This document shows positions 9,928 to 60,775 of a DNA stretch of 64,000 nt, piece by piece. Positions within the stretch are counted from its first letter, which is position 1. Each line of letters begins with the position of its first letter. Source of the stretch: Octopus vulgaris. Taxonomy: Eukaryota. The DNA lies in assembly GCA_951406725.2 (NCBI GenBank), contig OX597826.1, positions 83,948,001-84,012,000 of the forward strand, written 5' to 3'. A program made the position numbers and the translations under genes. Under the pieces are notes generated by a model. The model saw only the letters and a list, made by a program, of their open reading frames with translations. It was not told the DNA's origin and searched no databases.

Positions 9928-9945
9928 TAGCCAAAACCTAGCCAA

Positions 9946-10802
9946 AACCTAGCCAAAACCAAAGTTCTAATAAGTAGGAAGGTAGATCAATCACAAACGC
10001 CTTCAGGTAGATGGCCCTGCTCGATCTGTAAAAAAGGTGTAGGTAGAAACTCTATAAGATGCACCAAGTGTAAGCTATGGACACATAAGAGGTGCAGCAA
10101 TGTCAAAGGAAGGCTAACTAGGAAAATAGTTTTTGTCTGTGGCAAATGCTCAGGAGCAATAAACACTGGAAATATGCAGAGACCAACTTCTGCCACGTTC
10201 CAGGGAGACAAACTAGAAGTAGTTGATAGCTTCCGCTACCTAGGAGACCAAGTCAGTAGCGGGGGTGGGTGTGCTGAAAGTGTAACTGCTAGAGTAAGAA
10301 TAGCCTGGGCAAAGTTTAGAGAGCTCTTACCCCTGCTGGTGACAAGAGGCCTCTCGCTCAGAGTAAAAGGCAGACTGTATGATGCATGTGTACGTACAGC
10401 CATGCTACATGGTAGTGAAACATGGGCCGTGACTGCTGAGGATATGCGTAAGCTCGCAAGAAATGAAGCCAGTATGCTCCGATGGATGTGTAATGTCAGT
10501 GTTCATAATCGTCAGAGTGTAAGTTCCTTGAGAGAAAAGCTGAACCTAAGAAGCGTCAGTTGTGGCGTGCAAGAGAGACGGCTGCGCTGGTATGGTCATG
10601 TGACAAGAAAGGCTGAAGATAGTTGTGTGCAAAAGTGCTACACCCTAGCAGTGGAGGGAACCTGTGGAAGAGGTAGACCCAGGAAAACCTGGGACGAGGT
10701 GGTGAAGCACGACCTTCGAACTTTAGGTCTCACTAAGGAAATGTCTAGAGACCGAGACCTATGGAGAAGTATGCTGTGCATGAGAAGACCCGGCAAGACT
10801 AG
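9946..10802 (+). pseudogene. RTE ORF C-terminal part: end of RT, PHD finger, thumb and C-terminal domain
   Basis: [51 protein letters not shown]; probable true stop TAG 10800-10802 after a 2-nt insertion near 10768. Confidence 0.9.
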
Positions 10803-10829
10803 TCAGGCCATAACCCGTGGCCCCGACCT

Positions 10830-12360
10830 GGGACGTAGTCAGTCCTGTGCATACCTTCCTTCTTGTGACACTTATGAAGACCTGTTGAGGCAAGTGAAAA
10901 TCAAATCAAATCAAATCAAAACAAATCAAATAGATGAACATCAGTGGAATTGTATTCTTTGTGGTACCAGTGCCGGTGGCACACAAGAAAACCACCCAAA
11001 CGTGGCCGTAACCAGTACCGCATCGACTGGCCTCCGTGCTGTGGGCACAACAAACACCATCCGATCGTGGCCGTTCGCCAGCCTCATCTGGCACCTGTGC
11101 CGGTGGCACATAAAGACACCATCCGAAGACCCGGCGACGTAGTCAGTCCACCTGTGCATACCTTCCCTCTTATGACACTTGTGAAGACCTGTTGAGGCAA
11201 GTGTGTGACACTTGTGAAGACCTATTGAGGCAGAGGCAAGTGTGTGACACTGGTGGAGACCTGTTGAGGCAAGTGTGTGACCCTGTGAAGACCTGTTGAG
11301 GCAAGTGAAAATCAAACCAAATCAAAATAGATGAATATCAATGGAATTTGTATCTTTGTGGTTCCAGTACAGGTGGCACACAAGAAAACCATCCGAACGT
11401 GGCCGTAGCTGGTACCGCATCGACTGGCCTCCGTGCTGTGGGCACAACAAACACCATCTGATCGTGGCCGTTCGCCAGCCTCACCTGGCACCTGTGTCGG
11501 TGGCACATAAAAACACCATCCAAAGACCCGGCGACGTAGTCAGTCCACCTGTGCATACCTTCCCTCTTATGACACTTGTGAAGACCTGTTGAGGCAGAGG
11601 CAAGTGTGTGACACTTTGTGAAGACCTGCTGAGGCAGAGGCAAGTGTGTGACACTTGTGGAGACCTGTTGAGGCAAGTGTGTGACACGCGTGACACTTGT
11701 GAAGACCTGTTGAGGCAAGTGAAAATCAAAATCAAAATCAAACCAAATCAAAATAGATGAACATCAATGGAATTTGTATCTTTGTGGTTCCAGTACCGGT
11801 GGCACACAAGAAAACCATCCGATCGTGGCCGTTCGCCAGCCACATCTGGCACCTGTGTCGGTGGCACATAAAGACACCATCCGAAGACCCGGCGACGTAG
11901 ACAGTCCACCTGTGCATACCTTCCTTCTTGTGACACTTGTGAAGACCTGTTGAGGCAAGTGAAAATCAAATCAAATCAAATCAAAATAGATGAACATAAA
12001 TGGAATTTGTATCTTTGTGGTACCAGTGCCGGTGGCACACAAGAAAATCATCCGAACGTGGCCGTAGCCAGTACCGCATAGACTGGCCTCCGTGCTTTGG
12101 GGACGTAACAAACACCATCCGATCGTGGCCGTCCGCCAGCCTCATCTGGCACCTGTGTCGGTGGCACATAAAAACACCATCCGAGCGTGGCCGTCTGCCA
12201 GCCTCGTCTGGCACCTGTGTCGGTGGCACATAAAAACACCATCCGAGCGTGGCCGTCTGCCAGCCTCGTCTGGCACCTGTGTCGGTGGCACATAAAAACA
12301 CCATCCGAGCGTGGCCGTTCGCCAGCCTGCGTCTGGCACCTGTGTCGGTGGCACATAAAA
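10830..12360 (+). repeat. Hierarchical tandem repeats in the RTE 3' UTR
   Basis: Unit of about 300-400 bp restarting at GACGTAG(T/A)CAGTCC (10832, 11136, 11533, 11894), a 29-35 bp GTGACACTTGTGAAGACCTGTTGAGGCAAGT unit, and 61-bp units at 12113-12360. Confidence 0.9.
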
Positions 12361-18614: not shown

Positions 18615-19064
18615 AACGGGAAGCTTTATGAAAATAAACAAAAGACGAAGGCAGGTGGAAAACAAACGAACAATTGTATTAGTATGGCGCTCAGGAAATA
18701 TAAATAAAACAAGTCTTTAACGTTTCGAGCCTACGCTCTTCAACAGAAAGATACACAGAGAGAGAAAAACACAGAAAGAAGGAGAGAAAAAATGCGTGCA
18801 GTAGCTAACGAATCAACATGGCGATCTGATTTCGGCCAGAGGTCAAAGATCAAACATGAGACGCGAGAGCGAAATAAGGGGAGATAATAGGGTTGAGGGA
18901 CCAGCTAAAAGTGCGTGGGAGGGGTCTGGATGTGTGTATGTATAGGGTTGGTGTATGTATTAGTATGTATAAGGGTGTGTGTGTGTGTGTGTGTGTGTAT
19001 GAGAGAGTATTAGTGCGTAGGATTGGTCTGGACGTGCGTATGTATGGGGTTGGTGTATGTATTA
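18615..19064 (-). repeat. 3' pseudo-LTR of the Penelope-like element
   Basis: Near-identical to 23111-23577 (offset 4496 at the start). Confidence 0.92.
18714..18751 (-). ncRNA. Minimal type-I hammerhead ribozyme (A6U core variant)
   Basis: UCUUU CUGUUGA A GAGC-GUAG-GCUC GAAA CG UU AAAGA: 5-bp stem I, 4-bp stem II, palindromic AACGUU stem III. Confidence 0.75.
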
Positions 19065-19275
19065 GTATGTATTAGTATGTATTAGTACGTATTGGTATGT
19101 ATAGTGTGTGTGTGTGTGTGTGAGAGAGTATAAGTGCGTATGCGGGGTCTGGACGTGTGTATGTATAGGGTTGGTGTAAGTATTAGTATGTACTAGTATG
19201 TATTAGTACGTATTAGTATGTATTAGTTGGTGTGTGTATTAGTATGGCACATCATATGTGATGTGATGTGTAAAG

Positions 19276-22200
19276 TCATGTGGTGTAGTGAGGAGAAGAG
19301 GGGGAGGGGAGAAGAGGGGGAGAAGGGGAGGGGAAGAAGAGGGGGAGGGGAGGGGGAAGAGGAGAGGATGGGGAGAAGGAAGGGGAGGAGAGGGATGAAG
19401 GAGGAAAGAGGGAGAGGGGGAGAGAGAAGGGGAGAGAGGGAGTGAGGGAGCAGAGGGAAGGGGAAGAGGGAGGGAGAAAGAGGGAAGAAGGGAAGGGGAG
19501 TAGGGGTGAAAGGATGAAGGACTGAAGAAGTAGGGGTCGGGGGGAGAAAGGATAGGTGAGGAGGGGGAGAGGGGGGTTAGATGAGGAGGGGGGAGAGTTG
19601 AGACCAAATGGCGTATAAGAGCGAAGAGAGAAGATTAATTCCTGTTCACGGCGCAAACGGGAATCCGGATGGCCTCTGTGTAAGGACAAACCGAACACAG
19701 ATAGGTGTTGCAAGGAGTGACCGGTGGAGCGGAAATGGCGTGAGACCGGTGTGTCGTTCGCAAGGTGGATGTCACGAAGGTGTTCCGCGAACCGGTCAGC
19801 CAAGCGGCGTCCCGTTTGTCCGATGTACAAGGAATTGCAGAGAGAGCAAGAGATGCAATAGATAATATTGCTGGAGGTGCAGGTGAAGGAGTGGATGATG
19901 GGATAGGGTCGATGGTGGGTGCTAGTGAGGCGGGTGGTGTTGGAGAGGTAAGGGCAAGTGCGGCAACGTGGGCGGGAGCAGGGGAACGAGCCGGGTTGGG
20001 AGGTAGGGTCAGGGAAGGAGCTATGGACCAAAAGGTCTCGAAGGTTGTGGGCTCGTTTGAAAGAGGGGAGGGGTCGGTTAGGGAAGAGGTGTGAAGTGGA
20101 CGGGTCGGACTGGAGATGACGGAAAGCTCGAAGAATGGTGCGTTGGAGACGTAGGGTCGTGGGGTGGTAAGTGAGGGGAAAAGGGAGGCGGGAGACTACA
20201 GGGCGGGTTCGGGGAGAGAGAGCAGATACACGGTCCACGGACCGTGCTCTGGCAAGGGCGGTGTGGATAGTGGTGAGGGGGTATCCACGTAGGGTGAAGT
20301 GGTGAGCCATACGTTGAGACTGAGTCTCAAAGTCATGGTCGTCACTACAGAGCCTACGTAGACGGAGGAATTGGGAATAGGGGATGGAAAGCTTGGTGTG
20401 TTCTGGGTGGGAGGAAGAGAAGTTGAGGTATGAGTGTGAGTCTGTGTGTTTGTAGTGAATGGAGGTGGTAAGAGTGGAGTGAAGAATGCTAACCGAAATG
20501 TCGAGGAAGGAGACAGAGGTGTTGGAGATAGTGGAAGTGAAGTGGAGGGCTGGATGGAAAGATTGGACGAAAGAGAGGAAGGAATCTAGATGTTCGCGGG
20601 AGAGTGAGGTGGCACCGATAATGTCGTCAATATAACGACCATATAGTTCAGGAGTGGGACCAGTGAAATTAGAGAATATTTGGGCCTCAACATAGCCAAC
20701 GAACAGGTTCGCATAGTTGGGGCCCATTCGCGTTCCCATGGCCACTCCCGAGACCTGATGGTAGAACTCGCCCGCGAACGAGAAGCAGTTCAGAGTAAGG
20801 ACAAGTTCGGCCAGACGAATGAGTGTGGAGGTGTCAGGTACAGGGTTAGAGCGGAGGTCAAGAAAGTGTCGAAGGGCCTGCAGTCCTTCGTGGTGAGGGA
20901 TAACAGTATAGAGGCTTTGGATGTCCATAGTAAAAAGGATTTTGGAAGGAGCCGGGAGGAAAGGAGAAAGAGTTGAAAAGCCGGAGAGCATGGTTGGTAT
21001 CGTGGATGTGGGAGGGAAGAGATGCCACTAGGGGGGCAAGGACACGGTCGAGGTATTTAGAGATGAGCTCCGTGGGGCAGTTACAGGCGGAGACGATGGG
21101 GCGGCCAGGGTTGTTGGGTTTGTGGATTTTGGGGAGGAAGTAAATGGTGGGGGTGCACGTGGGGTTCGCACAATTAGGTTGGATGCGGTGCGGGGGAGAC
21201 GGGAGGACGAGATGAGGTCTTGGACAGTAGAGGATACCGTCTGTTGGTAGCTACGTGTGGGGTTAGAGGGCAGAGGGGAATAGAAGGAGGTGTCATTGAG
21301 TTGGCGGAAAGCCTCGGCCCTATAGAGGTCTGCGCGCCACACCACTACAGCTCCACCCTTGTCAGCCGGTTTGATGATAATGTCAGCGCGCCGTTGGAGG
21401 GAACGAAGAGCCAAGAGCTCAGCCGGGGAGATGTTGAGGCGGCGTTGGCGCCTGGAGAAGTTGAACCGCTCCAATGCACGCTGACAAGCGCCCGCGAAAA
21501 GATCCACTGCTAGGATCTGGCCAGGGGCAGGCGTCCACGGGGATGGTCGGCGGCCCAGGCCAGTGAAGCAGTCGTCCTCTTCGTTGGGTGTGGGTGGCGA
21601 GTCGTGGTAATGCGCACCCAACCGGACACGGCGTACAAAGCTGTGGACATCAACTCGCGTCTGGAATTCCTTACAGGATGGAGTGAGGGGGATGAAACGC
21701 AGACCCCTACCAAGGACGGAGCGTTCAGCCGCAGAGAGGGGAAGATCGGGGGGAATGGTAACAACAGACGGAAGTGGAGAAGGGGTGGGTGGAATAGAAG
21801 TAGGAGGGGTGGTAGGTCTCGTGGAGGTCTGAGGGGGAGGGATTGGGGAGGTGTGTGGGGGGTGGTTGGGGCGGGGCAGTAGGGTTAGGTGTAGGTGGAT
21901 GGAGCCTAACGGGAGGGGAGAAGGGGTTGTAAGGAGGGGTAGTGGGGTTAGGTGTGGGTGGATGGAGCCTATCGGGAGGGGAGAAGGGTGGTGGAGGAGT
22001 TGGGGTAGTGGCGTCGGGTAGGGTGGAATGGAAGAGTGATTGGAGTTTACGAAGTTTGGTATCAGAAAGAAATTGATGGAAGAGTTGATTCAAATGGATA
22101 ATGAAGCGTAGCGTGTTTGGAGCATAGAGAGGCGGCAGAGAGGAGAAGAAGGTGGAGAAAGCAGGAGGAAGAAGGCGGTTGATGGCATGTAGTTTGGAGA

Positions 22201-22488
22201 GATTGGAGCGAATGGTGGCCCGCATAAGGCGGTAAGATGTGGTGCGGAGTATGGGTAAGATGGAAGAATCCGAGTGGAGAGCAGGGTGGAAGTGGAGGCG
22301 GAAACCTTTAGGGATGAGTCGGTGATGTAGGCAGCGGCTTAGGAAAGAGACATGGCTAGAGAAGCGGGTTTTTTAAAAAGAAGTAGAGAGAGATTAACGG
22401 ACGGCTGAAGGCAATATACAGGATGTGAACGTAGATGATCCTTCAAACGGTGATGGAGGGTGAGGAGGTAGGACCTAGGATCCGGCAT
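19276..22488 (-). pseudogene. Penelope-like polyprotein (N-terminal domain, RT, GIY-YIG endonuclease) broken by about 4 frameshifts
   Basis: MPDPRS start 22488; [83 protein letters not shown]; true stop may be near 19578. Confidence 0.92.
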
Positions 22489-23110
22489 GATGGGATAGCG
22501 GAAAAAAACGTTCGAAAAAACAAAAAAAACAAAAAACAAAAATTATCGTATGAAAAAAATAGAAAAAAAAGGGGTAGCGAAAAAACGGGGAAAAAACAAA
22601 CGTTCAAAAAAGCAAAAAAATAATAATCGTATGAAAAAACTAGATAAGTAAGCGATAGGGGCAGAAAAGACGGGGCAAACGGAAAAGGGAAAGAAAGAAG
22701 GAAGCAGAGAGAGGGGGAGGCAAAAAAAGGGGGTGCAGGCAGAGGAAACGGAGTATGGACATCCAGAGAGGGAAGAAAGACGGAAAGGAGAACAAAAATT
22801 CAGGAAAATGTGGAAAGCATGAAATGAATGTAAAAAAAGTGGTAATATAAGAGAAAATAAAAATACAACAAACGGGACAGTTTATGCGAACAAGTTCAAG
22901 GTTGAAAGTTCAAGGTGAGAAATGTGTAGACGTCGTGGTATATTTTTTAAGGATTTCACATCAATGCAAAGTCACTTTGATCCGCGAAAGAGAGGTGCAG
23001 CCAATGGTAAGTATCCAAGAGGTAAAGAAAATCCAAGGTAGAGGTAAGTGTTGATAGTGGTATTGGTAGAATATAGGATGAAAGTGAGACCACGTGAGCG
23101 CATAATATAT

Positions 23111-23577
23111 AACGGGAAGCTTTATGAAAATAAACAAAAGACGAAGGCAGTTGGAAAACAAACGAACAATTGTATTAGTATGGCGCTCAGGAAATATAAA
23201 TAAAACAAGTCTTTAACGTTTCGAGCCTACGCTCTTCAACAGAAAGATACACAGAGAGAGAAAAACACAGAAAGAAGGAGAGAAAAAAATGCGTGCAGTA
23301 GCTAACGAATCAACATGGCGATCTGATTTCGGCCAGAGGTCAAAGATCAAACATGAGACGCGAGAGCGAAATAAGGGGAGATAATAGGGTTGATAAAAGG
23401 GTTGAGGGACCAGCTAAAAGTGCGTGGGAGGGGTCTGGATGTGTGTATGTATAGGGTTGGTGTATGTATTAGTATGTATAAGGGTATGTGTGTGTGTGTG
23501 TGTGTGTGTGTATGAGAAAGTATTAGTGCGTAGGATTGGTCTGGACGTGCGTATGTATGGGGTTGGTGTATGTATTA
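23111..23577 (-). repeat. 5' pseudo-LTR of the Penelope-like element
   Basis: Near-identical to 18615-19064 with a 12-bp duplication near 23390. Confidence 0.92.
23210..23247 (-). ncRNA. Minimal type-I hammerhead ribozyme, second copy
   Basis: Identical to 18714-18751. Confidence 0.75.
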
Positions 23578-27780
<4,203 letters not shown>

Positions 27781-34446: not shown

Positions 34447-34521
<75 letters not shown>

Positions 34522-34644
34522 AAGAAGAAGAAGGAGGAGGAGGAGGAGGAGGAGGAGGAGGAGGAGGAGGAGGAGGAGGAGGAGGAGGAGAAGAAGAAGA
34601 AGAAGAAGAAGAAGAAGAAGAAGAAGAAGAAGAAGAAGAAGAAG
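34414..34644. repeat. Compound (TAA)n(GAA)n(GGA)n(GAA)n microsatellite
   Basis: Direct reading. Confidence 0.97.
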
Positions 34645-35576
34645 ACACAACAAAAGCTATAAAGCAAATGAAATCAAAACTAAAACTAGAACAGCAACGG
34701 ACCATGATAAAACGATGGCAAGAAAAGCCCCTTCATGGTAAATACTGGACTAAACTAAATGCAAAAGAAATAGACAAAGAAAAATCCCAGCAATGGTTGA
34801 GAAGCTCAGGACTCAAAGCAGAGACAGAGGGATTTTTAATTGCAGCACAAGTCCAAAGCCTCCCCCATCAGAAATTACCAAAAACATGTAATGAAAAGAA
34901 ATATGACAAGTAACTGCAGAATATGTGGAGATGGACAAGAAACAATAAATCATATTATCTCTGGCTGCCCAGTCCTGACTAAGAAGGAATATATTCACAG
35001 ACACGACAGAGTTGGAACCTACATACACTGGAAGCTATGGCAACATTATGGAATAACAACAGAAAAAAGATGGTATAGGCACACACCTGAAAAGGTCACA
35101 GAAAACGAGAAAGCAACCATACTCTGGGATATGCCGATACACACAGATAGAGAAATTAAGGCTAACAGACCAGATATAGTTGTCAGAGATCATGAAGAAA
35201 AAAATGCTTTCTAATTGATGTATCAATACCAGCAGATGACAACGTGTCTCTAAAAGAAATGGAGAAACTTTCAAAATACAAAGACCTGGAAATAGAGGTA
35301 ACTAGAATGTGGAATCGAAAAACAGAAACAATTCCTATCATAGTAGGTGCATTAGGCATGATAAAAAATATTCAGACAAATACATAACAAAAACACCAGG
35401 ACTTACAAACACATATAACATAGAGAAAATTGCACTACTAGGCACTGCACACATCCTACGCACAACACTTTCAATACAGTAACCATCAGAGCATCACAAC
35501 AACTCACAGCACATACCCAAGGCACACAGAGCTGCGCTCGGTAGTGAAGTGAAAGCACGCTATAAAAATAAAACTA

Positions 35577-37319: not shown

Positions 37320-37587
37320 TCAAGTATGGAGGAAGAAAATTAATTCCTACTCCAGATGGAGACAGGAGTCTGAGTAGCCTCTGTGCAAGGCCAGTCTGAA
37401 CACAGATAGATGTTGCTGAGAATAACCAGTTGAGTGTGATACAAGACTGGGATGTCATTACCAAGTCTGATGTCCCAAAGATGTTCAGCAAAATGATCGA
37501 CCAAATATTGACCAGTTTGTCCAATGTATGGGGAGTGGCAAAGCAAACAGAAGATGCAATAAATCAGATTACTGGAGGTGCAAGAGG
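37320..37587 (-). pseudogene. Decayed Penelope-like GIY-YIG endonuclease
   Basis: CTSSNLIYCIFCLLCHSPYIGQTGQYLVDHFAEHLWDIRLGNDIPV, homologous to 19600-19885. Confidence 0.8.
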
Positions 37588-37946
37588 AGTCATTGGACTG
37601 CAGCCATGTTGAGGCAAGACCATGAAGGGTTTAGTAAACAAAGAAAGAATAAGTACCAGTAAGCTTAGTCCTTGATCATTGATCTCTTGTGCCAACCTGC
37701 TAAGTTGCAGGACATAAACAAACCAATACTGGTGTCAAGTGGTGATGAGGACAAACAGAAAAATACACACACATATGCATAAATATATACATAACGGGAT
37801 TCTTTCAGTTTCCGTCTTCCAGATCAATTCACAAGGCTTTGATCAGCCTGGGGTTATAGTAGAAAACACTTGCCCAAAGTGACATGCAGTGGGAGTGAAC
37901 CTGGGACAACATAGTTGGGAAGCAAACTTCTTACCATACAGCCACT
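37588..37946 (-). mobile_element. tRNA-derived SINE (family A), diverged
   Basis: Collinear with 5393-5771. Confidence 0.8.
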
Positions 37947-45431: not shown

Positions 45432-46357
45432 TCACTAGTCTTATTCTTATCACATGCTTTCACTTCACTACCGAACGCACTTCTGTGTGCCTTGGGTATG
45501 TGCTGTGGTTTGTTGTGATGCTCATATTTTCACTGTATTGAAAGTGTTTTATACGTAGGATGTATGCGGTGCCAAGTAGTGCTATTTTCTGTATGTTATT
45601 ATACTTGTTAGTCCTGGTGTTTTTGTTATGTATTTGTTTGAATATTTTTTTATCATACCTAATGCGCCTACTATGATAGGAATTGTTTCTGTTTTTAGAT
45701 TCCACATTCTAGTTACCTCTATTTCCAGGTCTTTGTATTTTGAAAGTTTTTCCATTTCTTTTAGAGACACGTTGTCATCTGCTGGTATTGATACATCAAT
45801 TAGAAAGCGTTTTTTCCTGGTGACCTCTGACAACTATATTCGGTCTATCGGCCTTAATTTCTCTATCTGTGTGTATTGGCATATCCCAGAGTATGGTTGC
45901 TTTCTCATTTTCTGTGACCTTTTCTGGTGTGTGCCTATACCATCTTTTTTCTGTTGTTATTCCATAATGTTGGCATAGCTTCCAGTGTATATAGGTCCCA
46001 TTTCTATCGTGACTGTGAATATATTCCTTCTTAGCCAGGACTGGGCAGCCAGCAAAAATATGATTTATTGTTTCTTGTCCACCTCCACATATTCTGCAGT
46101 TACTTATATTTCTTTTTATTACATGATTTTGGTGATTTCTGTTGGGAAGGCTTTAGTCTTGTACTGCAATTTAAAACCTTTCACTCTCTGCTTTGAGTCC
46201 TGAGCTTCTCAACCATTGCTGGGATTTTGCTTTGTCTATTTCTTTTGTGTTTAGTTTAACCCAGTATTTGCCATGAAGAGGCTTTTCTTGCCATCGTTTT
46301 ACCATGATCCATTGCTGTTCCAGTTTTAGTTTGGATTTCAGTTGGTTTATAGCTTTT
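45432..46357 (-). mobile_element. Second 5'-truncated Dong/R4-type fragment
   Basis: Reverse-complement homologue of 34652-35580 over its whole length; (TTA)-type repeats on both sides. Confidence 0.9.
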
Positions 46358-49300
46358 ATTATCATTATTATTATTGTTATTATTATTATTATTATGTAAG
46401 TCAAAACCAATACTTTGAAGATACTAAGATGAAACAAAGAATTTAGAAAGCTAAAGTAATCTTGTTAGGGAGAGATTAATTTAGAAAAGAAAATTTATAC
46501 CTTAAAATATTTACTAATCCAATACTTTGGGGTGAAAATACCTAAAAGAGTGATGAGACCAGGAAAATGTGCTGGGGTTGTCGCAGTTTCAAATCTGGAT
46601 GCAAACATGAAACTGTAAAGAACTCCAACACATCTCCTGTTCTCATCAGTCTCTCTTCAAACTGAATTAAAGACTAGCTTGCAGTTTTGGCATGATTTCC
46701 ATGTTCGGATCTCTTGTCATCATCGACCCTTGTATGGTGGGTTTGTTTTATCATGTCATCAATACTAGAGAAGTTGTCTTGTCCCCGAGGACTTAAGTGT
46801 CCACTCTTCTCTATGTAGTTTTTATTCATTTGTTGACCAACACCAAAAAGATTGCACTGGCAAGACTAAACAGAGTCTCTCCCTCTTCTCGACACCATCT
46901 CCATTCAGACTTTCCACACACACACACCCAACTCACCCCCACCGCCACTGTCTACTCACAAAATCAATCCAAATGAACAGATTTCTGTAAGAAATGATTT
47001 CCATGTCAGCAATGTTTCTGAACTTAAAATCATATTAAGAAAAGTTGGTGCAGGAATAACTCTGCATTTCATAGCACCAAGAAGGAAGGGTCTTTAAGTC
47101 TAAACACAGCTGAAGTTGATTCTGGCTTAATAAAATATAAGCCAGAAATAAACTGGAGCTGAGGTAATTAGCTACATTCTCACATGGGGGTGGGGTGGGA
47201 GGCAGAATGAATAAATAAATAAATGAATGAATGAAGGTCTTTACCTTGAGGGGAGAGCAATATCATTAGTGAGACTATATTTCACTATGAAATGTGTAAA
47301 AAAAAAAACAAAAAAAAACAGCAATATACAAGTCAAAGAGGATTCTACCATGTTGTCCTGATTTTCTTAACAAGCCACTCTCTATAACAAATTCTCTACC
47401 ATCTTTGAAATACAGACCATATGTTCCTGGAACCCAAATCTTAAAGTAACATGCCATGCCTCCAGATGCACTAATAAAGATGACCATGGCTAGAATGATG
47501 ACCAAACAAGTTCTACATGGCTGAACTTGCTAGAAGTAGTAGTTAAAGCATTCCTTAATTACACCCTAATGGTAGCAAGATACATTTACAACAAAACAGA
47601 AATGATAAACAGTTATGACTTGACTACAGATTTACTCAATCAGCTGACTTTAGTAGAAATGAGCAGATTTCTTGGCAATTCCCAGAGTGAACTCATCATG
47701 TTCTGTTTTTTGTCTGTTGCACAGTGAAAGTACCAAAAACCAAATGAAGAGGAGGGTTCAGTGAGTAAGTGGCCAAAAGGTCAGCAATTACTAAACTGTC
47801 ACCCTGTCACCATCCTTGGTGCTGCTTCTTTAATCCTCAAATGATGCTGGATCTTATTCTATCAGCTGCTGAGTTAAAATTGGAAGTAAACAAACCAATA
47901 CTTGTAGGCAAGAAGTAAAGAGGATAGACACAGGACACACAGACACACATAAGATGAACATCGGTTGACCCTGGGCTAGTCATGTGCTCAAGGTGCAGCG
48001 CAGTGGGGCTGAACTTGTGACGATGTGATTGCAAGTCAAACTTCTTAACCACAGCCATTCCTGAGCAAAACAAAAAGAAAAAAGTGAAAACTCTAAAACA
48101 GCTCAATTTCTTATTTTTAGTTTTTCTTTAACAGTATAGGATTACTTTAATGGTATCTTCTTAACACCAAAAGGGATGGTGGGTGATGTGTGTGTGTGTG
48201 TGTGTGGGGGGGAAATAAATTTCAGCAGGGGACTAACTAAACCCCTTAACACATTTTTAGAAGATGAGTCAACAGAAAGTACAACAAATAGAAGAAAAAA
48301 CTAAACAGAAACATATACACATGTAGGCACACATACACAAAGGTTACCCCCACCCCACCCCACCCCCCACCCCGCAAGTACTTTCACCTCAGCAGCAGCA
48401 ATAAAGAAGGGAGGAGGAAGATATTAGTAAGGAAATGGGCCTTTTTTAGGTCATACACCTCAAGTTTGAAAAACTGTTAAGGAATTGGAAGCAGTTCTCT
48501 TTCATACCAAACATTTAGGTAACCCTTTTTTTCTTCTTCAGATATCTTTACTAAACTGAAAACATCTTTTTGTCTGTCTACCACATCTCAACTCTACTTT
48601 CACTCCTTCTTTCTTTTCTTTTCTTTTTACCTTTCCTTCCTAATGGGGAAGAGAAAAGATGGAGGGATGAGGGCATTCCCACCCACCCCACATACATAGA
48701 ATCTCCTCCTTTTTCACATTCTTTATAATCTCTTTCATCTTCCAATGGTTCACATCTCTTTCTTCTCCTCCTCCTCCTCTCCCTGCCCCCTCACACCTTT
48801 AAAGTCTTTCCTGTCCACCCTCAACTCCCCCCCCACCACCACCACCAATCATCCTTTAGTATCCACTAATCCCTACACAACTCCCCCCACCCGCTTTCTT
48901 TAACTCCCATCACTTGTAATTCTTCTCTTGACTTTCCCCTTCTATCTTTTGCTATTTTCAGATCTATGTTGAAGGAACCACCACCACCACCACCACCACC
49001 ACCACCTCGTTCTTCACCCCTGCTGCCCCTACATCTCAAATGATTCACTAACCCATCTGTAACACAAGGCAAAGGGGGAAAACTCCATATAGTTGCTCAA
49101 CTGCTAGAAATAGTAACCAAACTTCCCTCAAATCATACCCTTCATACAGTCTACAAAAAGATAGGATTTTCATAGGTAGTACACCATGATCAAAGGTTTG
49201 TTCAATGAAAGCTGACTTACACGTAAACAACAGCAACACTTACAAACACACAGAATATTAATGACTTATTATTATTAATTAGTCACAAAACTACACTTTC

Positions 49301-52081: not shown

Positions 52082-52684
52082 GGGATCTCTTCCTTTTGAA
52101 CGGCAGTTTGTAACATAATTTCTAGGTAACTAAAAAGTTTTAAACTTCGTATACTGGTAGAATGTGTTTATAAAACATCGTTTTCTCTTGGTTTTATTGA
52201 GAAAATTCTATAGTTTGTAAGATATTTCGTCTGAAAATCCGAGCATTTTGGCAATTTTAACCAATCGATTACCGCCATTCAACTAAAATCATTTGCTGCG
52301 TCTAAAACTGAGACAACATCCTGTCACTAACCCTAAACCTACCCTAACCCTACATTTTTTTTTCTTAATTGTTACGCGTGTAAAAAAAATAAAGCGTGTG
52401 TATAAAATTATAGAATTATTTTGTTTGTTAATTGTTTAAATTATTTTCCATTGCTTTATTTTTTTTACCCGCGTAACAATTAAATTAATTTAACAATTAA
52501 GAAAAAAAATGTAGGGTTAGGGTGAGGTTTAGGGTTAGTGACAGGATGTTGTCTCAGTTTTAGACGCAGCAAATGATTTTAGCTCAAAAGAGAGCATAGG
52601 ATTGGTTAAAATTCGACCAGTATACGAAGTTTTAAAGTGTTTAGTTAACTAGAAATTGTCTGTCGTTCAAAAAGAAAAGAACCC
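52082..52684. mobile_element. Foldback-type non-autonomous DNA element with internal telomere-like repeats
   Basis: TIRs GGGATCTCTTCCTTTTGAACGGCAG / CTGTCGTTCAAAAAGAAAAGAACCC; inner inverted arms about 52283-52395 and 52453-52582 with TAACCC / GGGTTA units. Confidence 0.8.
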
Positions 52685-52696
52685 AGAAATGTTCCA

Positions 52697-52784
52697 TCTG
52701 ACGTGCAAATCGATCGTCGAAACCGGGTGTAGGGGCGAAAAACCAATCGAGCCGTCTTGTAGCTGGTTCCCTCCGAAGTTTCCC
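52697..52784 (+). pseudogene. 28S: Dispersed 28S rRNA fragment (88 bp)
   Basis: CTGACGTGCAAATCGATCGTC ... AGGGGCGAAA ... AATCGA ... GTAGCTGGTTCCCTCCGAAGTTTCCC is a conserved eukaryotic LSU segment; flanks are not rDNA. Confidence 0.9.
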
Positions 52785-53142
52785 GTTTTCTTTCTTTTTT
52801 TTCTTTTTCCATTCAGCTTCAGTTTATCTAAGACTATATTATCCTACATGATTCTCCTTAATTAAGGCAGCAAGACGTAGTTTGAGGAGATTTGACAGCT
52901 ATTTCTAGCAAGTCGAGTGACCACACTGAGACTCCTTTGACGAGCATTTTTGGGTGCTTGTAGTCATGAATCCAGCTCCTCCCGAGTGAATAATTTACAG
53001 AAGGAAGGAGTAGTTCCATGACTTATGAACGATAAATTATGACTAAATTTTAAATAAAACCTTAACTGAATCCAGACACGACGAGCTAGAAATAATAGCC
53101 ACATAACATCACACCCAACCCTCTATAATATATATATATATA

Positions 53143-53328
53143 AACCGCTTTTTTTTTTCTTTTAGAAAAACATAAACCCGGAGAAGAAGCACACTCTAAG
53201 AAGTAGAGCAGTCTAAATTAATGGTGAAGGCCGGTTTATAGGGTTACCCTGGGTTTCTCGCCATAAAGTGTGCCTTTATAGCGTATCTTCAGACCCTAAG
53301 ACCCATTGGCCTCTTTAAAATATGAATG
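53143..53328 (-). mobile_element. 186-bp hammerhead-bearing insert between (TA)n runs
   Basis: (TA)n at 53128-53142 and 53329-53348; no coding sequence. Confidence 0.7.
53239..53298 (-). ncRNA. Type-I hammerhead ribozyme with canonical core
   Basis: UAGGGU CUGAAGA UA CGCUAUAAAG-GCACA-CUUUAUGGCG A GAAA CCCAGGG UA ACCCUA: 6-bp stem I, 10-bp stem II, GUA site. Confidence 0.9.
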
Positions 53329-55104
53329 TATATATATATATATATATACAAAAGGAGCCTTAAGACAATGTTGAACTGAATACACTTGTCTGAGATGTTA
53401 CGGTCACAGTTGGAATGTCCGAGATTACAAGCATGTTCGATCCCTTTCTCACATCAGTATCTGCTGAGCCCCTTGTGGGTAGTAAAGAAATAAGTATCTG
53501 AGGCCCAGAAAATGTTCACGAGTCCTACCCTTTCTCCTTTATACCATTAAACAACAATACTCGACGATATAAGAACGAACCAAATACTCTGACGAGGTGA
53601 AAAAAAATCACTGATGGAAAGTGAGGAGGCAAATGTTTGCTATTAATCCCATTAAGTGATAATGAAGAATTGGAACATATTCCACAGTCACAGAGTTACT
53701 GAGGGAATAATAGAATTGCTTTGGTTTGTATAAACTGTGAAACTACACATATTGTGATATACCGCGATTTATTCACGTGTGTGTGTGTGTGTGTGTGATG
53801 GTGAGTTTGTGAAAATCTATTTGTTTGGCCCGTGAGCCAGATGTTTAATCTGTGTTGTTGTTGTCATTAGTTTGTAGGTAATACAATGGAAATCAATAGA
53901 AATTATAAATTCACGAAAAAAGAAAAGAAATACAGGAATTCGTTTTAACAACGAAAACTGCTGCTGTAAGAAATAATGAAGAATGGTAAAGAACATAATC
54001 GACGAAGAAATGAAAGAAGGAAGACTAATTTTAAAAAAAACAGAAAACGAAAGATGAATGAATGAATGAACGAAGAATATAAAAAACAAAGAGGACAGAA
54101 GAAAGAAAAGAAAGCATCAAGAGTTGACGATTAAAATGTAAACAAATATTTCGATAATTATCGAAATCTAATGGAGAATTCATGTTTTTGAGGCTGGGAA
54201 TTAGAATTGAACCCCGGACTCGATCCACCGAAATATCGGATACATACATATGTTGGTATTCAATAGGCATTTGTTATGTTGTTAGTATGCGGTGGGGAAA
54301 GGCACAAACGTTCGAAATATATTTTTTCTATCCATAATAAAACAACTCTGATGATTTGTATCGCAGAAGTATTTAAAAATAACAATAAAGAATTACAAGA
54401 AGTCGAATTTATTTCGGGAATATTGTTGGTATTGGTATTAACGGATGGGATTTAAGGATGTTATGATGTTTATGCCTTCTCCAAGGACACTTGTAACAAT
54501 AAGAGAGGAGAAATACTCTGAGAATCGAAGCCAAATCGTCTGCTACCTCAAGTCTGTGACATACCCTGCTTCTTTTATGAAGTGCCATAAAAGAAATGTT
54601 GTTTAATCTTAGGCATCTCTGATAGAGAAAACCCTAACCGCAAAGCATTCCACCCATGGCTATACATACAGTCATGTGGGTTACCTAGGACTACATTATG
54701 TAATGTGTTCCTTTCTTTTTACATGACAATGGATTTGTGTGTGACGAGAGGGAGATTTGATTAGAAATCCATCAGGCCCAACGGCCAAACAGAAGGATTA
54801 CATTTTTCAAAATCCTTTCATTTCTCCAAACACAACTACTTCTTCAGTTGTGTTGGTAAAACCATTGGGAAAGGCATGAATATCAAAACATCTAATATTC
54901 TGTTTCAATAATTTTTAGGTATCATCGCTATATTGTTAACCACAATTATTAAAGACTTGGACCCGGTCCACTTCGAACACTTTACTTCTCTTCCCTAACA
55001 CGGAATGAATGTCACAACATCACTATTTTCCACTCCTCCTTCTTCCTCATTATGGGTTTCATGTATTTAAAGAATCAAAACAAAAACTATAATTACATAT
55101 TTTC

Positions 55105-60119: not shown

Positions 60120-60775
60120 ACCCCTTCGAATTTACAGTTGAGAGTGGGTTTCTGTTCTTGTATGAAGACAGCTTCATTGACTCGTCTCATTGCATCAGTG
60201 GGATGTGTGGATAAGATGTTTAACTTAAGTCTCCCTAAGGAGCCCTTGTGACAGTCTACAGCATGCTGATAGAAGATGGAGTTTGGTTTTTTTTTCAATG
60301 TAGTTGTCCAGGTGTTCTTTGAACCTATCAATTATACTCCTAGAAGTCTCACCTATATATGACTCTGGGTTAGTCATGCAAGCTCCTTCTTGGCACTTAA
60401 TTTGATATACAGTGCTCTTGGTTTTGCAGTTCACATGTGGGTTTGGAGAACATACTGCACAATTATTTTGACATGTGATTCTTTCAAATGGATATGATCT
60501 ACATAATACAGATTTGATAGTCCTACCTGTCTTTTTTACAACTTTGATCTTAAGGCCAGTTGTGTGCAGGATTTTTTGAATGCCTTACTTAATTTGTTCT
60601 TAGGTGTGGCGTCAACAAACATTACACTGTGAAATTTCTTGTTATCATACCAAGGATTTTTATTTTATTTCTTTTGTTGGTGTCCCTCTCTAACCTATTC
60701 TAGAACTTGTTGCAGTATAGGGGGCATATACTGTTTTCATCATCTCTTAGAATGCGTTCGAATCTTGTTTTCACT

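What the first reader, a model, noticed from the sequence alone, without database searches (positions are those of the whole stretch)
53143..53328. Stand-alone 186-bp (TA)n-flanked cassette with a canonical hammerhead
Seen: the best-formed ribozyme in the window (6-bp stem I, CUGAAGA, 10-bp stem II with one G-U pair, GAAA, stem III ACCC-A-GGGU, predicted GUA cleavage after 53245 on the minus strand) inside a tiny non-coding insert bounded by (TA)n. Stem III might close with a 3-nt loop, so it may cleave as a monomer. Inference: a solo pseudo-LTR or retrozyme-like unit. If a host intron is transcribed on the minus strand it could cut the pre-mRNA.
Basis: partly seen in the sequence, partly recalled or inferred. 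Interest (0 to 1): 0.7.

Follow-up and report, generated by a model that had tools for sequence, protein, structure and literature searches.

The report
Truncated Hydra-clade Penelope hammerhead end
This is an ordinary short leftover copy of the ribozyme-bearing terminal repeat of an old, abundant Penelope-like jumping gene (Hydra clade) lying in a TA microsatellite; its hammerhead motif is real but atypical and is predicted to cut poorly on its own, and cutting has not been tested.

Summary
The 186-bp insert, the (TA)n flanks and the hammerhead pairings are present as stated, but the motif is not canonical: U10.1-A11.1 plus a bulged A replaces G10.1-C11.1, and Rfam does not recognise it. It is not a stand-alone element. 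The genome holds many copies (40 of 40 scored of 1,874 candidates, 81-89% identical) that share its 3' end, have staggered 5' ends and often carry inverted arms. Longer copies run upstream into a broken RT-GIY-YIG ORF with the Hydra-clade marks tested here, and the cassette's 3' end runs on into the element's 5' leader, so it is a solo pseudo-LTR piece. Stems I and III covary between subfamilies, so the fold is real, but present copies decay largely neutrally. Stem III is a near-palindrome that favours dimers, and no partner lies in the window. No host gene or expression was shown. Earlier notes of this scan reached the same reading on other octopus-like DNA. Side findings: tandem-hammerhead mini-units (leader-to-pLTR jumps in 14 of 30 loci) and a 190-420-codon N/S/T-rich spacer inside the GIY-YIG motif. 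New family of a known kind; low interest.

The parts
53143..53328 (-). Whole insert: solo piece of the pseudo-LTR of a Hydra-clade Penelope-like element, from -36 to about +150 relative to hammerhead C3
53299..53328 (-). Remnant of the element's 3' UTR / pLTR start; the 5' break point lies here, in a zone where many other copies also stop
53239..53298 (-). Type I hammerhead: stem I 53298-53293/53244-53239; core CUGAAGA 53292-53286; U10.1 53285; bulged A 53284; stem II 53283-53274/53268-53259; A11.1 53258; G12-A14 53257-53255; near-palindromic stem III 53254-53246; predicted cut after 53245
53143..53215 (-). 'Tail' between the two recurrent 3' ends of the family (about +75/+82 and +150/+159); in longer copies it continues directly into the 5' leader of the ORF
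53128..53142 (.). (TA)n flank at the element's 3' end (target microsatellite; no discrete TSD can be told)
53329..53348 (.). (TA)n flank at the element's 5' end

Best explanation
The cassette is a short genomic copy of the hammerhead-containing pseudo-LTR of an old, high-copy Hydra-clade Penelope-like retrotransposon, likely made when the element's GIY-YIG enzyme nicked a (TA)n tract and its reverse transcriptase started internally about 100 nt downstream of the predicted cut site and stopped just upstream of the hammerhead. Shown: homology to both ends of the coding element, a shared 3' end followed by microsatellite, staggered 5' ends, Hydra-clade protein motifs, and covarying stems. Inferred: target-primed internal initiation (by analogy with PMC11167929), and stalling or run-off near the structured hammerhead. 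In the full element the hammerhead would likely work as a dimer or with protein help. This lone copy is likely inert.
For:: 40 of 40 scored candidates (of 1,874) match at 81-89%, dispersed over many contigs; 30 of 30 nearest loci have a microsatellite at the shared 3' end; 5' ends run from -370 to -10; 9 of 30 carry an inverted arm ending at +75/+82; 23 of 30 loci found with the upstream endonuclease piece have the cassette downstream in sense. L063 and L114 join RT, thumb, CxCX5C linker, GIY-YIG and cassette collinearly; L114 also has RWK and DKT. The RT piece of L062 is 50 of 63 identical, by eye, to Hydra-1_Obim in the PMC8557442 supplement; in 15 of 30 leader-bearing loci the cassette's 3' part runs in sense into the 5' leader; 89% of cells paired; 45 cells with changes on both sides against 20.8 in shuffles (0 of 500 reach it); A-U to G-C in 15 rows and G-C to A-U in 6 rows in stem I, C-G to U-A in 8 rows in stem III. 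Published Hydra hammerheads often have U after A9 and a 4+1+4 stem III; 23 of 30 tail-picked copies stop between -49 and +50, so this size is the commonest product, and 29 of 30 cross the cut site uncut.
Against: No intact autonomous copy was seen: the longest open frame among 119 listed RT hits was 362 aa. Pfam did not recognise three parent fragments, and a protein database search gave nothing. The leader-linked copies are mostly a sister subfamily (about 69-87% to the cassette). RNAalifold on 14 hand-picked copies recovered only part of stem II and an alternative hairpin (-2.7 kcal/mol). In one search the number of pairs with a double change (9) did not beat shuffles (178 of 500), and the double-change rows are related copies that reflect a few events. 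The window copy has only 3 mismatches to the column majority (median 6; 6 of 76 as low) and is 1 of 12 of 81 copies with core, stem I and stem III intact, although the set was chosen by likeness to it.
Confidence: 0.9

Rival explanations
1. The cassette is a monomer shed by a non-autonomous retrozyme-like derivative of the same PLE (leader plus pLTR mini-unit) rather than by the coding element.
For: 14 of 30 leader-bearing loci jump from leader/ORF start (element position 100-316) to the pLTR (12 of them at 2739-2790), and L128, L130 and L143 hold two hammerheads in direct orientation 322-389 nt apart. The cassette is too short to show which template it came from. The PLE origin of retrozymes is argued in bioRxiv 10.64898/2026.07.22.740005.
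Against: The jump points differ in every locus except one near-identical pair (L147/L149), so no amplified mini-family was seen. These loci are mostly the sister subfamily. All long copies of the cassette's own subfamily continue into the coding element's 3' UTR and endonuclease. No tandem arrays among the 30 nearest loci.
Confidence: 0.07
2. This copy has been kept as a working host ribozyme that cuts an intron or other transcript on the minus strand.
For: The core and stems I and III are intact. The left junction is present without substitutions in another sample of organism A and in organism B (contigs 17 and 25), so the insertion is not private to this assembly.
Against: Non-canonical 10.1-11.1 pair, unstable monomer stem III, no partner in the window. 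The family decays nearly neutrally: core G/C 9.9% vs non-core non-CpG G/C 10.5%, CpG 29.7% (A/T: core 3.2% vs 6.1%). The copy has its own deletions and a C-to-U change in stem II. No host exon was recognised.
Confidence: 0.03

Closest known systems
Hydra clade of C-terminal-endonuclease Penelope-like elements, nearest Hydra-1_Obim (Craig et al. 2021, PMC8557442; section 11, passages, and supplement part 2 of 59 plus passages read)
   Same: RWK, DKT, divergent RT, CxCX5C linker, CxxC and CxH around E and N, (TA)n targets, type I hammerhead near the 3' end with a 4+1+4 near-palindromic stem III, inverted 5' arms and a tail. RT piece about 79% identical by eye; the start of the Hydra-1_Obim consensus resembles the cassette's tail and the leader (by eye).
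   Different: The hammerhead sequence differs from that listed for Hydra-1_oBim, so this is another family. It has U10.1-R11.1 with a bulged A and a 10-11 bp stem II; listed Hydra motifs with U after A9 have U before GAA. The GIY-to-YIG distance is 564-1,259 nt here against about 29 codons in Hydra-1_Obim and about half that in other Hydra elements. The tail is about 75 nt against 30-40 in the paper.
Metazoan PLE hammerheads (Cervera and De la Pena 2014, PMC4209133; parts 1-2 of 4 read)
   Same: Type I, long helix II, extra base near position 9/10.1, palindromic helix III suited to dimers, mostly found as single dispersed motifs of truncated PLEs.
   Different: That paper reports G10.1-C11.1 as highly conserved; here it is U-A or U-G (U10.1 in 80 of 81 copies; 11.1 is A in 61 and G in 15).
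Metazoan non-LTR retrozymes (PMC7229834, passages read; bioRxiv 10.64898/2026.07.22.740005, part 1 of 5 and passages read, supplements not available)
   Same: Type I hammerhead in a short non-coding stretch; PLE pLTR ancestry.
   Different: Retrozymes are direct tandem repeats of 150-450 nt giving circular RNAs; this copy is single, shorter than a unit and traceable to a coding element.
Poseidon element PAc in vitro system (Frangieh et al. 2024, PMC11167929; passages and second half of main text read)
   Same: Two recurrent ends downstream of the hammerhead (tail), AT-rich targets, and copies made from uncut RNA.
   Different: PAc's ORF starts inside the hammerhead; here a tail and a 120-nt leader separate the hammerhead from the ATG. 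Different clade.

Membership tests
Hydra-clade PLE | Single ORF with RT followed by C-terminal GIY-YIG endonuclease | tested here: met
   Collinear motifs in L063 and L114, all copies broken by stops or frameshifts
Hydra-clade PLE | RWK and DKT motifs in the N-terminal RT region | tested here: met
   L114 has both; RWK also in L115, L119, L121
Hydra-clade PLE | CxCX5C linker; CxxC and CxH flanking conserved E and N; no CCHH | tested here: met
   CxCX5C in L063, L113, L114, L115, L118, L119, L121, L122; CxxC, LNSR and CxH in L116 and L117. Absence of CCHH judged by eye from translations
Hydra-clade PLE | Insertion into (TA)n | tested here: met
   30 of 30 nearest loci have TA/CA/TATG repeats at the shared 3' end (loose pattern)
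Hydra-clade PLE | Hammerhead-containing pLTR at both ends (direct or inverted) | tested here: met
   3' copy after the EN in 23 of 30; direct 5' copy running into the leader in 15 of 30; inverted 5' copy in L114 and others
Hydra-clade PLE | Placement inside the clade on an RT tree | not tested
   Reference proteins were only read in the paper's supplement; identity counted by eye (50 of 63)
Hydra-clade PLE | Short element (<3 kb) with compact endonuclease | tested here: inconclusive
   L114 spans 2,945 nt from leader to 3' end; copies with spacers of 1.0-1.26 kb would exceed 3 kb
Canonical type I hammerhead | Core C3 U4 G5 A6 N7 G8 A9, G12 A13 A14, A15.1-U16.1, H17 | tested here: met
   Window copy intact; 44 of 81 copies intact; N7 varies (A 59, U 11, C 11)
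Canonical type I hammerhead | G10.1-C11.1 (R-Y) pair closing stem II | tested here: not met
   U-A or U-G plus a bulged A; no Rfam match
Canonical type I hammerhead | Self-cleavage | not testable with these tools
   Needs an in vitro assay
Non-LTR retrozyme | Direct tandem non-coding units, each with a hammerhead | tested here: not met
   Single copy in the window; no full direct tandem in the 30 nearest loci
Non-LTR retrozyme | Abundant monomer or circular RNA | not testable with these tools
   No RNA data were examined

The most novel reading that the evidence does not exclude
This PLE family records the birth step of non-LTR retrozymes. Reverse transcription stops just upstream of the hammerhead (giving solos like this cassette) and often jumps to the 5' leader of the template, building ORF-less units with two hammerheads 320-390 nt apart in direct orientation. 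Such units could form the dimeric ribozyme, self-excise and circularise. The same lineage also carried an endonuclease whose GIY and YIG motifs are separated by a 190-420-residue Asn/Ser/Thr-rich loop and still spread to high copy number.
Probability: 0.2. Interest if true: 0.5.

Novelty: new member of a known kind. Interest (0 to 1): 0.2.

Why it matters
As given, little: solo hammerhead-bearing PLE ends are described as the commonest state of these motifs (PMC4209133), and Hydra elements are known from octopus (PMC8557442). The modest value lies in the family. It adds a hammerhead variant (U10.1-R11.1 with a bulged A) that Rfam misses. It gives genomic support for copying from uncut RNA with two fixed 3' ends. 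It also shows leader-to-pLTR junctions that, if shown to cleave and amplify, would be a direct route from PLEs to retrozymes.

Tried and rejected
Rfam scans of the window and of 53000-53500: no hammerhead family among the rows shown. Tandem repeat search: no array at the site. The Penelope-type element at 18.6-23.6 kb of the window was considered as the parent and rejected: its pLTR shows no similarity to the cassette. The flanks were searched for a paralogous empty site: the immediate flanks are unique and only more distant short repeats match. Empty allele: no joint skipping just the cassette was listed in 4 runs, but the right (TA)n was not covered, so this is inconclusive; one unexplained joint row (53145 to 53402) was not resolved. 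Expression: no RNA holder listed and no RNA run was laid, so it stays open. Summed contig depth over the hammerhead is some hundreds of times that of the unique flank, which is not a copy number. Pile-up of 5' ends at the predicted cut site: 6 of 30 started at +46 to +53 with a query that itself began at +52, but only 1 of 30 with a more distal query, so it was rejected as a query-edge effect. Host exons: 61 of 130 listed frames were scanned with Pfam and gave only a PLE GIY-YIG piece and weak chance-level hits; this does not exclude a long intron. Protein search with the thumb-linker piece among longer proteins: none. RNAalifold did not predict the hammerhead. Paper searches found no description of this family's hammerhead or of the long spacer; Repbase and Dfam could not be searched.

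Full report
Observation. On the minus strand C3 is 53292 and nucleotide 17 is 53245. The motif is more than chance: it was the better of 2 descriptor hits in 64 kb, folds at z = -2.7 and its stems covary in the family (below). It is not canonical. A U and an A follow CUGAAGA and an A precedes GAAA, so stem II is closed by U10.1-A11.1 with a bulged A. Rfam finds no hammerhead there at E<=10.

It is a dispersed repeat. The window lies in a 2.8-Gb genome that is likely an octopus (inferred from its size, microsatellite load and the likeness to Hydra-1_Obim). A search with the cassette gave 1,874 first-look candidates; all 40 scored matched, at 81-89% identity apart from the window itself. In the 30 loci fetched, all have a microsatellite at the shared 3' end. 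The 5' ends range from -370 to -10 relative to C3, and 19 of 30 reach beyond the window copy's boundary. Nine of 30 carry an inverted 5' arm ending at +75/+82. None showed a full direct-tandem copy.

The parent. Walking upstream gave the C-terminus of an endonuclease. Of 30 loci found with that piece, 23 have the cassette downstream in sense. Further walking gave thumb and RT. L063 (84% to the cassette) and L114 (76%) join RT, thumb, CxCX5C linker, GIY-YIG and the cassette in order; L114 also has RWK, DKT and an inverted 5' pLTR. These are the marks given for the Hydra clade (PMC8557442 section 11). A 63-residue RT piece is 50 of 63 identical by eye to Hydra-1_Obim. The hammerhead listed for Hydra-1_oBim is different, so this is another family, but many published Hydra hammerheads share the U after A9 and the 4+1+4 stem III. 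With the 5' leader as query, 15 of 30 loci show the cassette's 3' part running directly into the leader, which makes the cassette a pseudo-LTR piece. Against: no intact copy was seen (longest open frame 362 aa among 119 hits); Pfam and the protein database did not recognise the fragments; no tree was built.

Is the ribozyme real and working? Among 76 aligned copies (81 found, 5 with large deletions left out), 89% of cells pair and 45 show changes on both sides against 20.8 in shuffles. Subfamily-level swaps occur in stem I and stem III, and N7 varies freely. The count of pairs with double changes did not beat shuffles, the rows are related, and RNAalifold on 14 copies did not predict the fold. 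I read the covariation as selection while the elements were active. Present copies decay: 44 of 81 keep the core, 12 of 81 keep core plus stems I and III, and G/C core positions change as often as non-core ones. As a monomer its stem III pairs have probability of about 0.06 and the MFE ties up C3 and U4; two copies would form an 8-bp stem III at -11.6 kcal/mol. Single metazoan PLE hammerheads showed no cleavage alone in PMC4209133 and needed the element's protein in PMC11167929. No partner lies in the window.

Mechanism. Shown: shared 3' ends at about +150/+159 and +75/+82, microsatellite targets, and staggered 5' ends, of which 23 of 30 lie between -49 and +50 when copies are picked by the distal tail alone; 29 of these 30 cross the predicted cut site. 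Inferred: the endonuclease nicks (TA)n, RT starts internally at the end of the tail on uncut RNA (as shown for PAc, PMC11167929) and stops in or just upstream of the hammerhead, leaving a solo such as this one. Whether the template was the 5' or the 3' pLTR cannot be told. The insertion is not private: contigs from another sample of organism A and from organism B span the left junction without substitutions. An empty allele was not seen, but that test was incomplete. No host exon was recognised and expression stays untested.

Side findings. In 14 of 30 leader-bearing loci the sequence jumps from the leader or first codons to the pLTR. Three loci thus hold two hammerheads in direct orientation 322-389 nt apart, the size of retrozyme units; the junctions differ in all but one near-identical pair, so amplification is not shown. 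The GIY and YIG motifs are 564-1,259 nt apart; the spacer is in frame and stop-free in 2 of 9 copies measured (54% and 58% Asn/Ser/Thr), against about 29 codons in Hydra-1_Obim. I found neither point in the paper searches run; Repbase, Dfam and the bioRxiv supplement could not be seen and may bear on this.

Verdict. A real but atypical hammerhead in an ordinary truncated PLE end; new family of a known clade. Earlier notes of this scan reported the same kind of object in related genomes; I had formed the reading before looking. Interest 0.2.

Noticed in passing
L123-L152 (e.g. L128:1324-1797, L130:1356-1910, L143:1345-1748, in element sense): 14 of 30 leader-bearing loci jump from the leader or ORF start straight to the pLTR with 0-34 extra bases; three hold two direct hammerheads 322-389 nt apart, retrozyme-sized units derived from the PLE.
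   Followed up: partly
L077:1399-2334, L089, L063, L062, L094: The GIY-YIG motif of this family is split by a 564-1,259-nt Asn/Ser/Thr-rich spacer, in frame without stops in L077 and L089; Hydra-1_Obim has only a short N/S/T-rich extension at that place.
   Followed up: partly
L004, L005, L007, L021, L023, L024, L027, L028, L030: Inverted 5' arms end at +75/+82 while main arms end near +150/+159: two fixed ends about 75 nt apart.
   Followed up: yes
window 18615-23600, minus strand: A different, near-full-length Penelope-type element (Pfam RVT_1 E=1.6e-5, GIY-YIG E=0.0037) with direct pLTRs; each has a hammerhead-like motif with a CUGUUGA core at 23242 and 18746.
   Followed up: partly
window 52117-52657: MITE-like nested inverted repeat (arms 52117-52163/52611-52657 and 52278-52374/52491-52587) containing TAACCC/GGGTTA-like words.
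   Followed up: no
window about 52700-52785, plus strand: Diverged fragment of eukaryotic LSU rRNA (Rfam RF02543, E=2.9e-10) followed by a T-rich run.
   Followed up: partly
window 60228-60584 and 37343-37630, minus strand: Further Penelope-type endonuclease fragments (the first Pfam GIY-YIG E=0.00029; the second by eye).
   Followed up: no
window 53460-53500: A roughly 35-bp piece of a very high-copy repeat.
   Followed up: no
window 9931-11142 (+), 24313-26758 (-), 34494-35384 (+), 45580-46464 (-): Broken non-LTR retrotransposon (LINE-like RT) frames, recognised by eye from translations.
   Followed up: no
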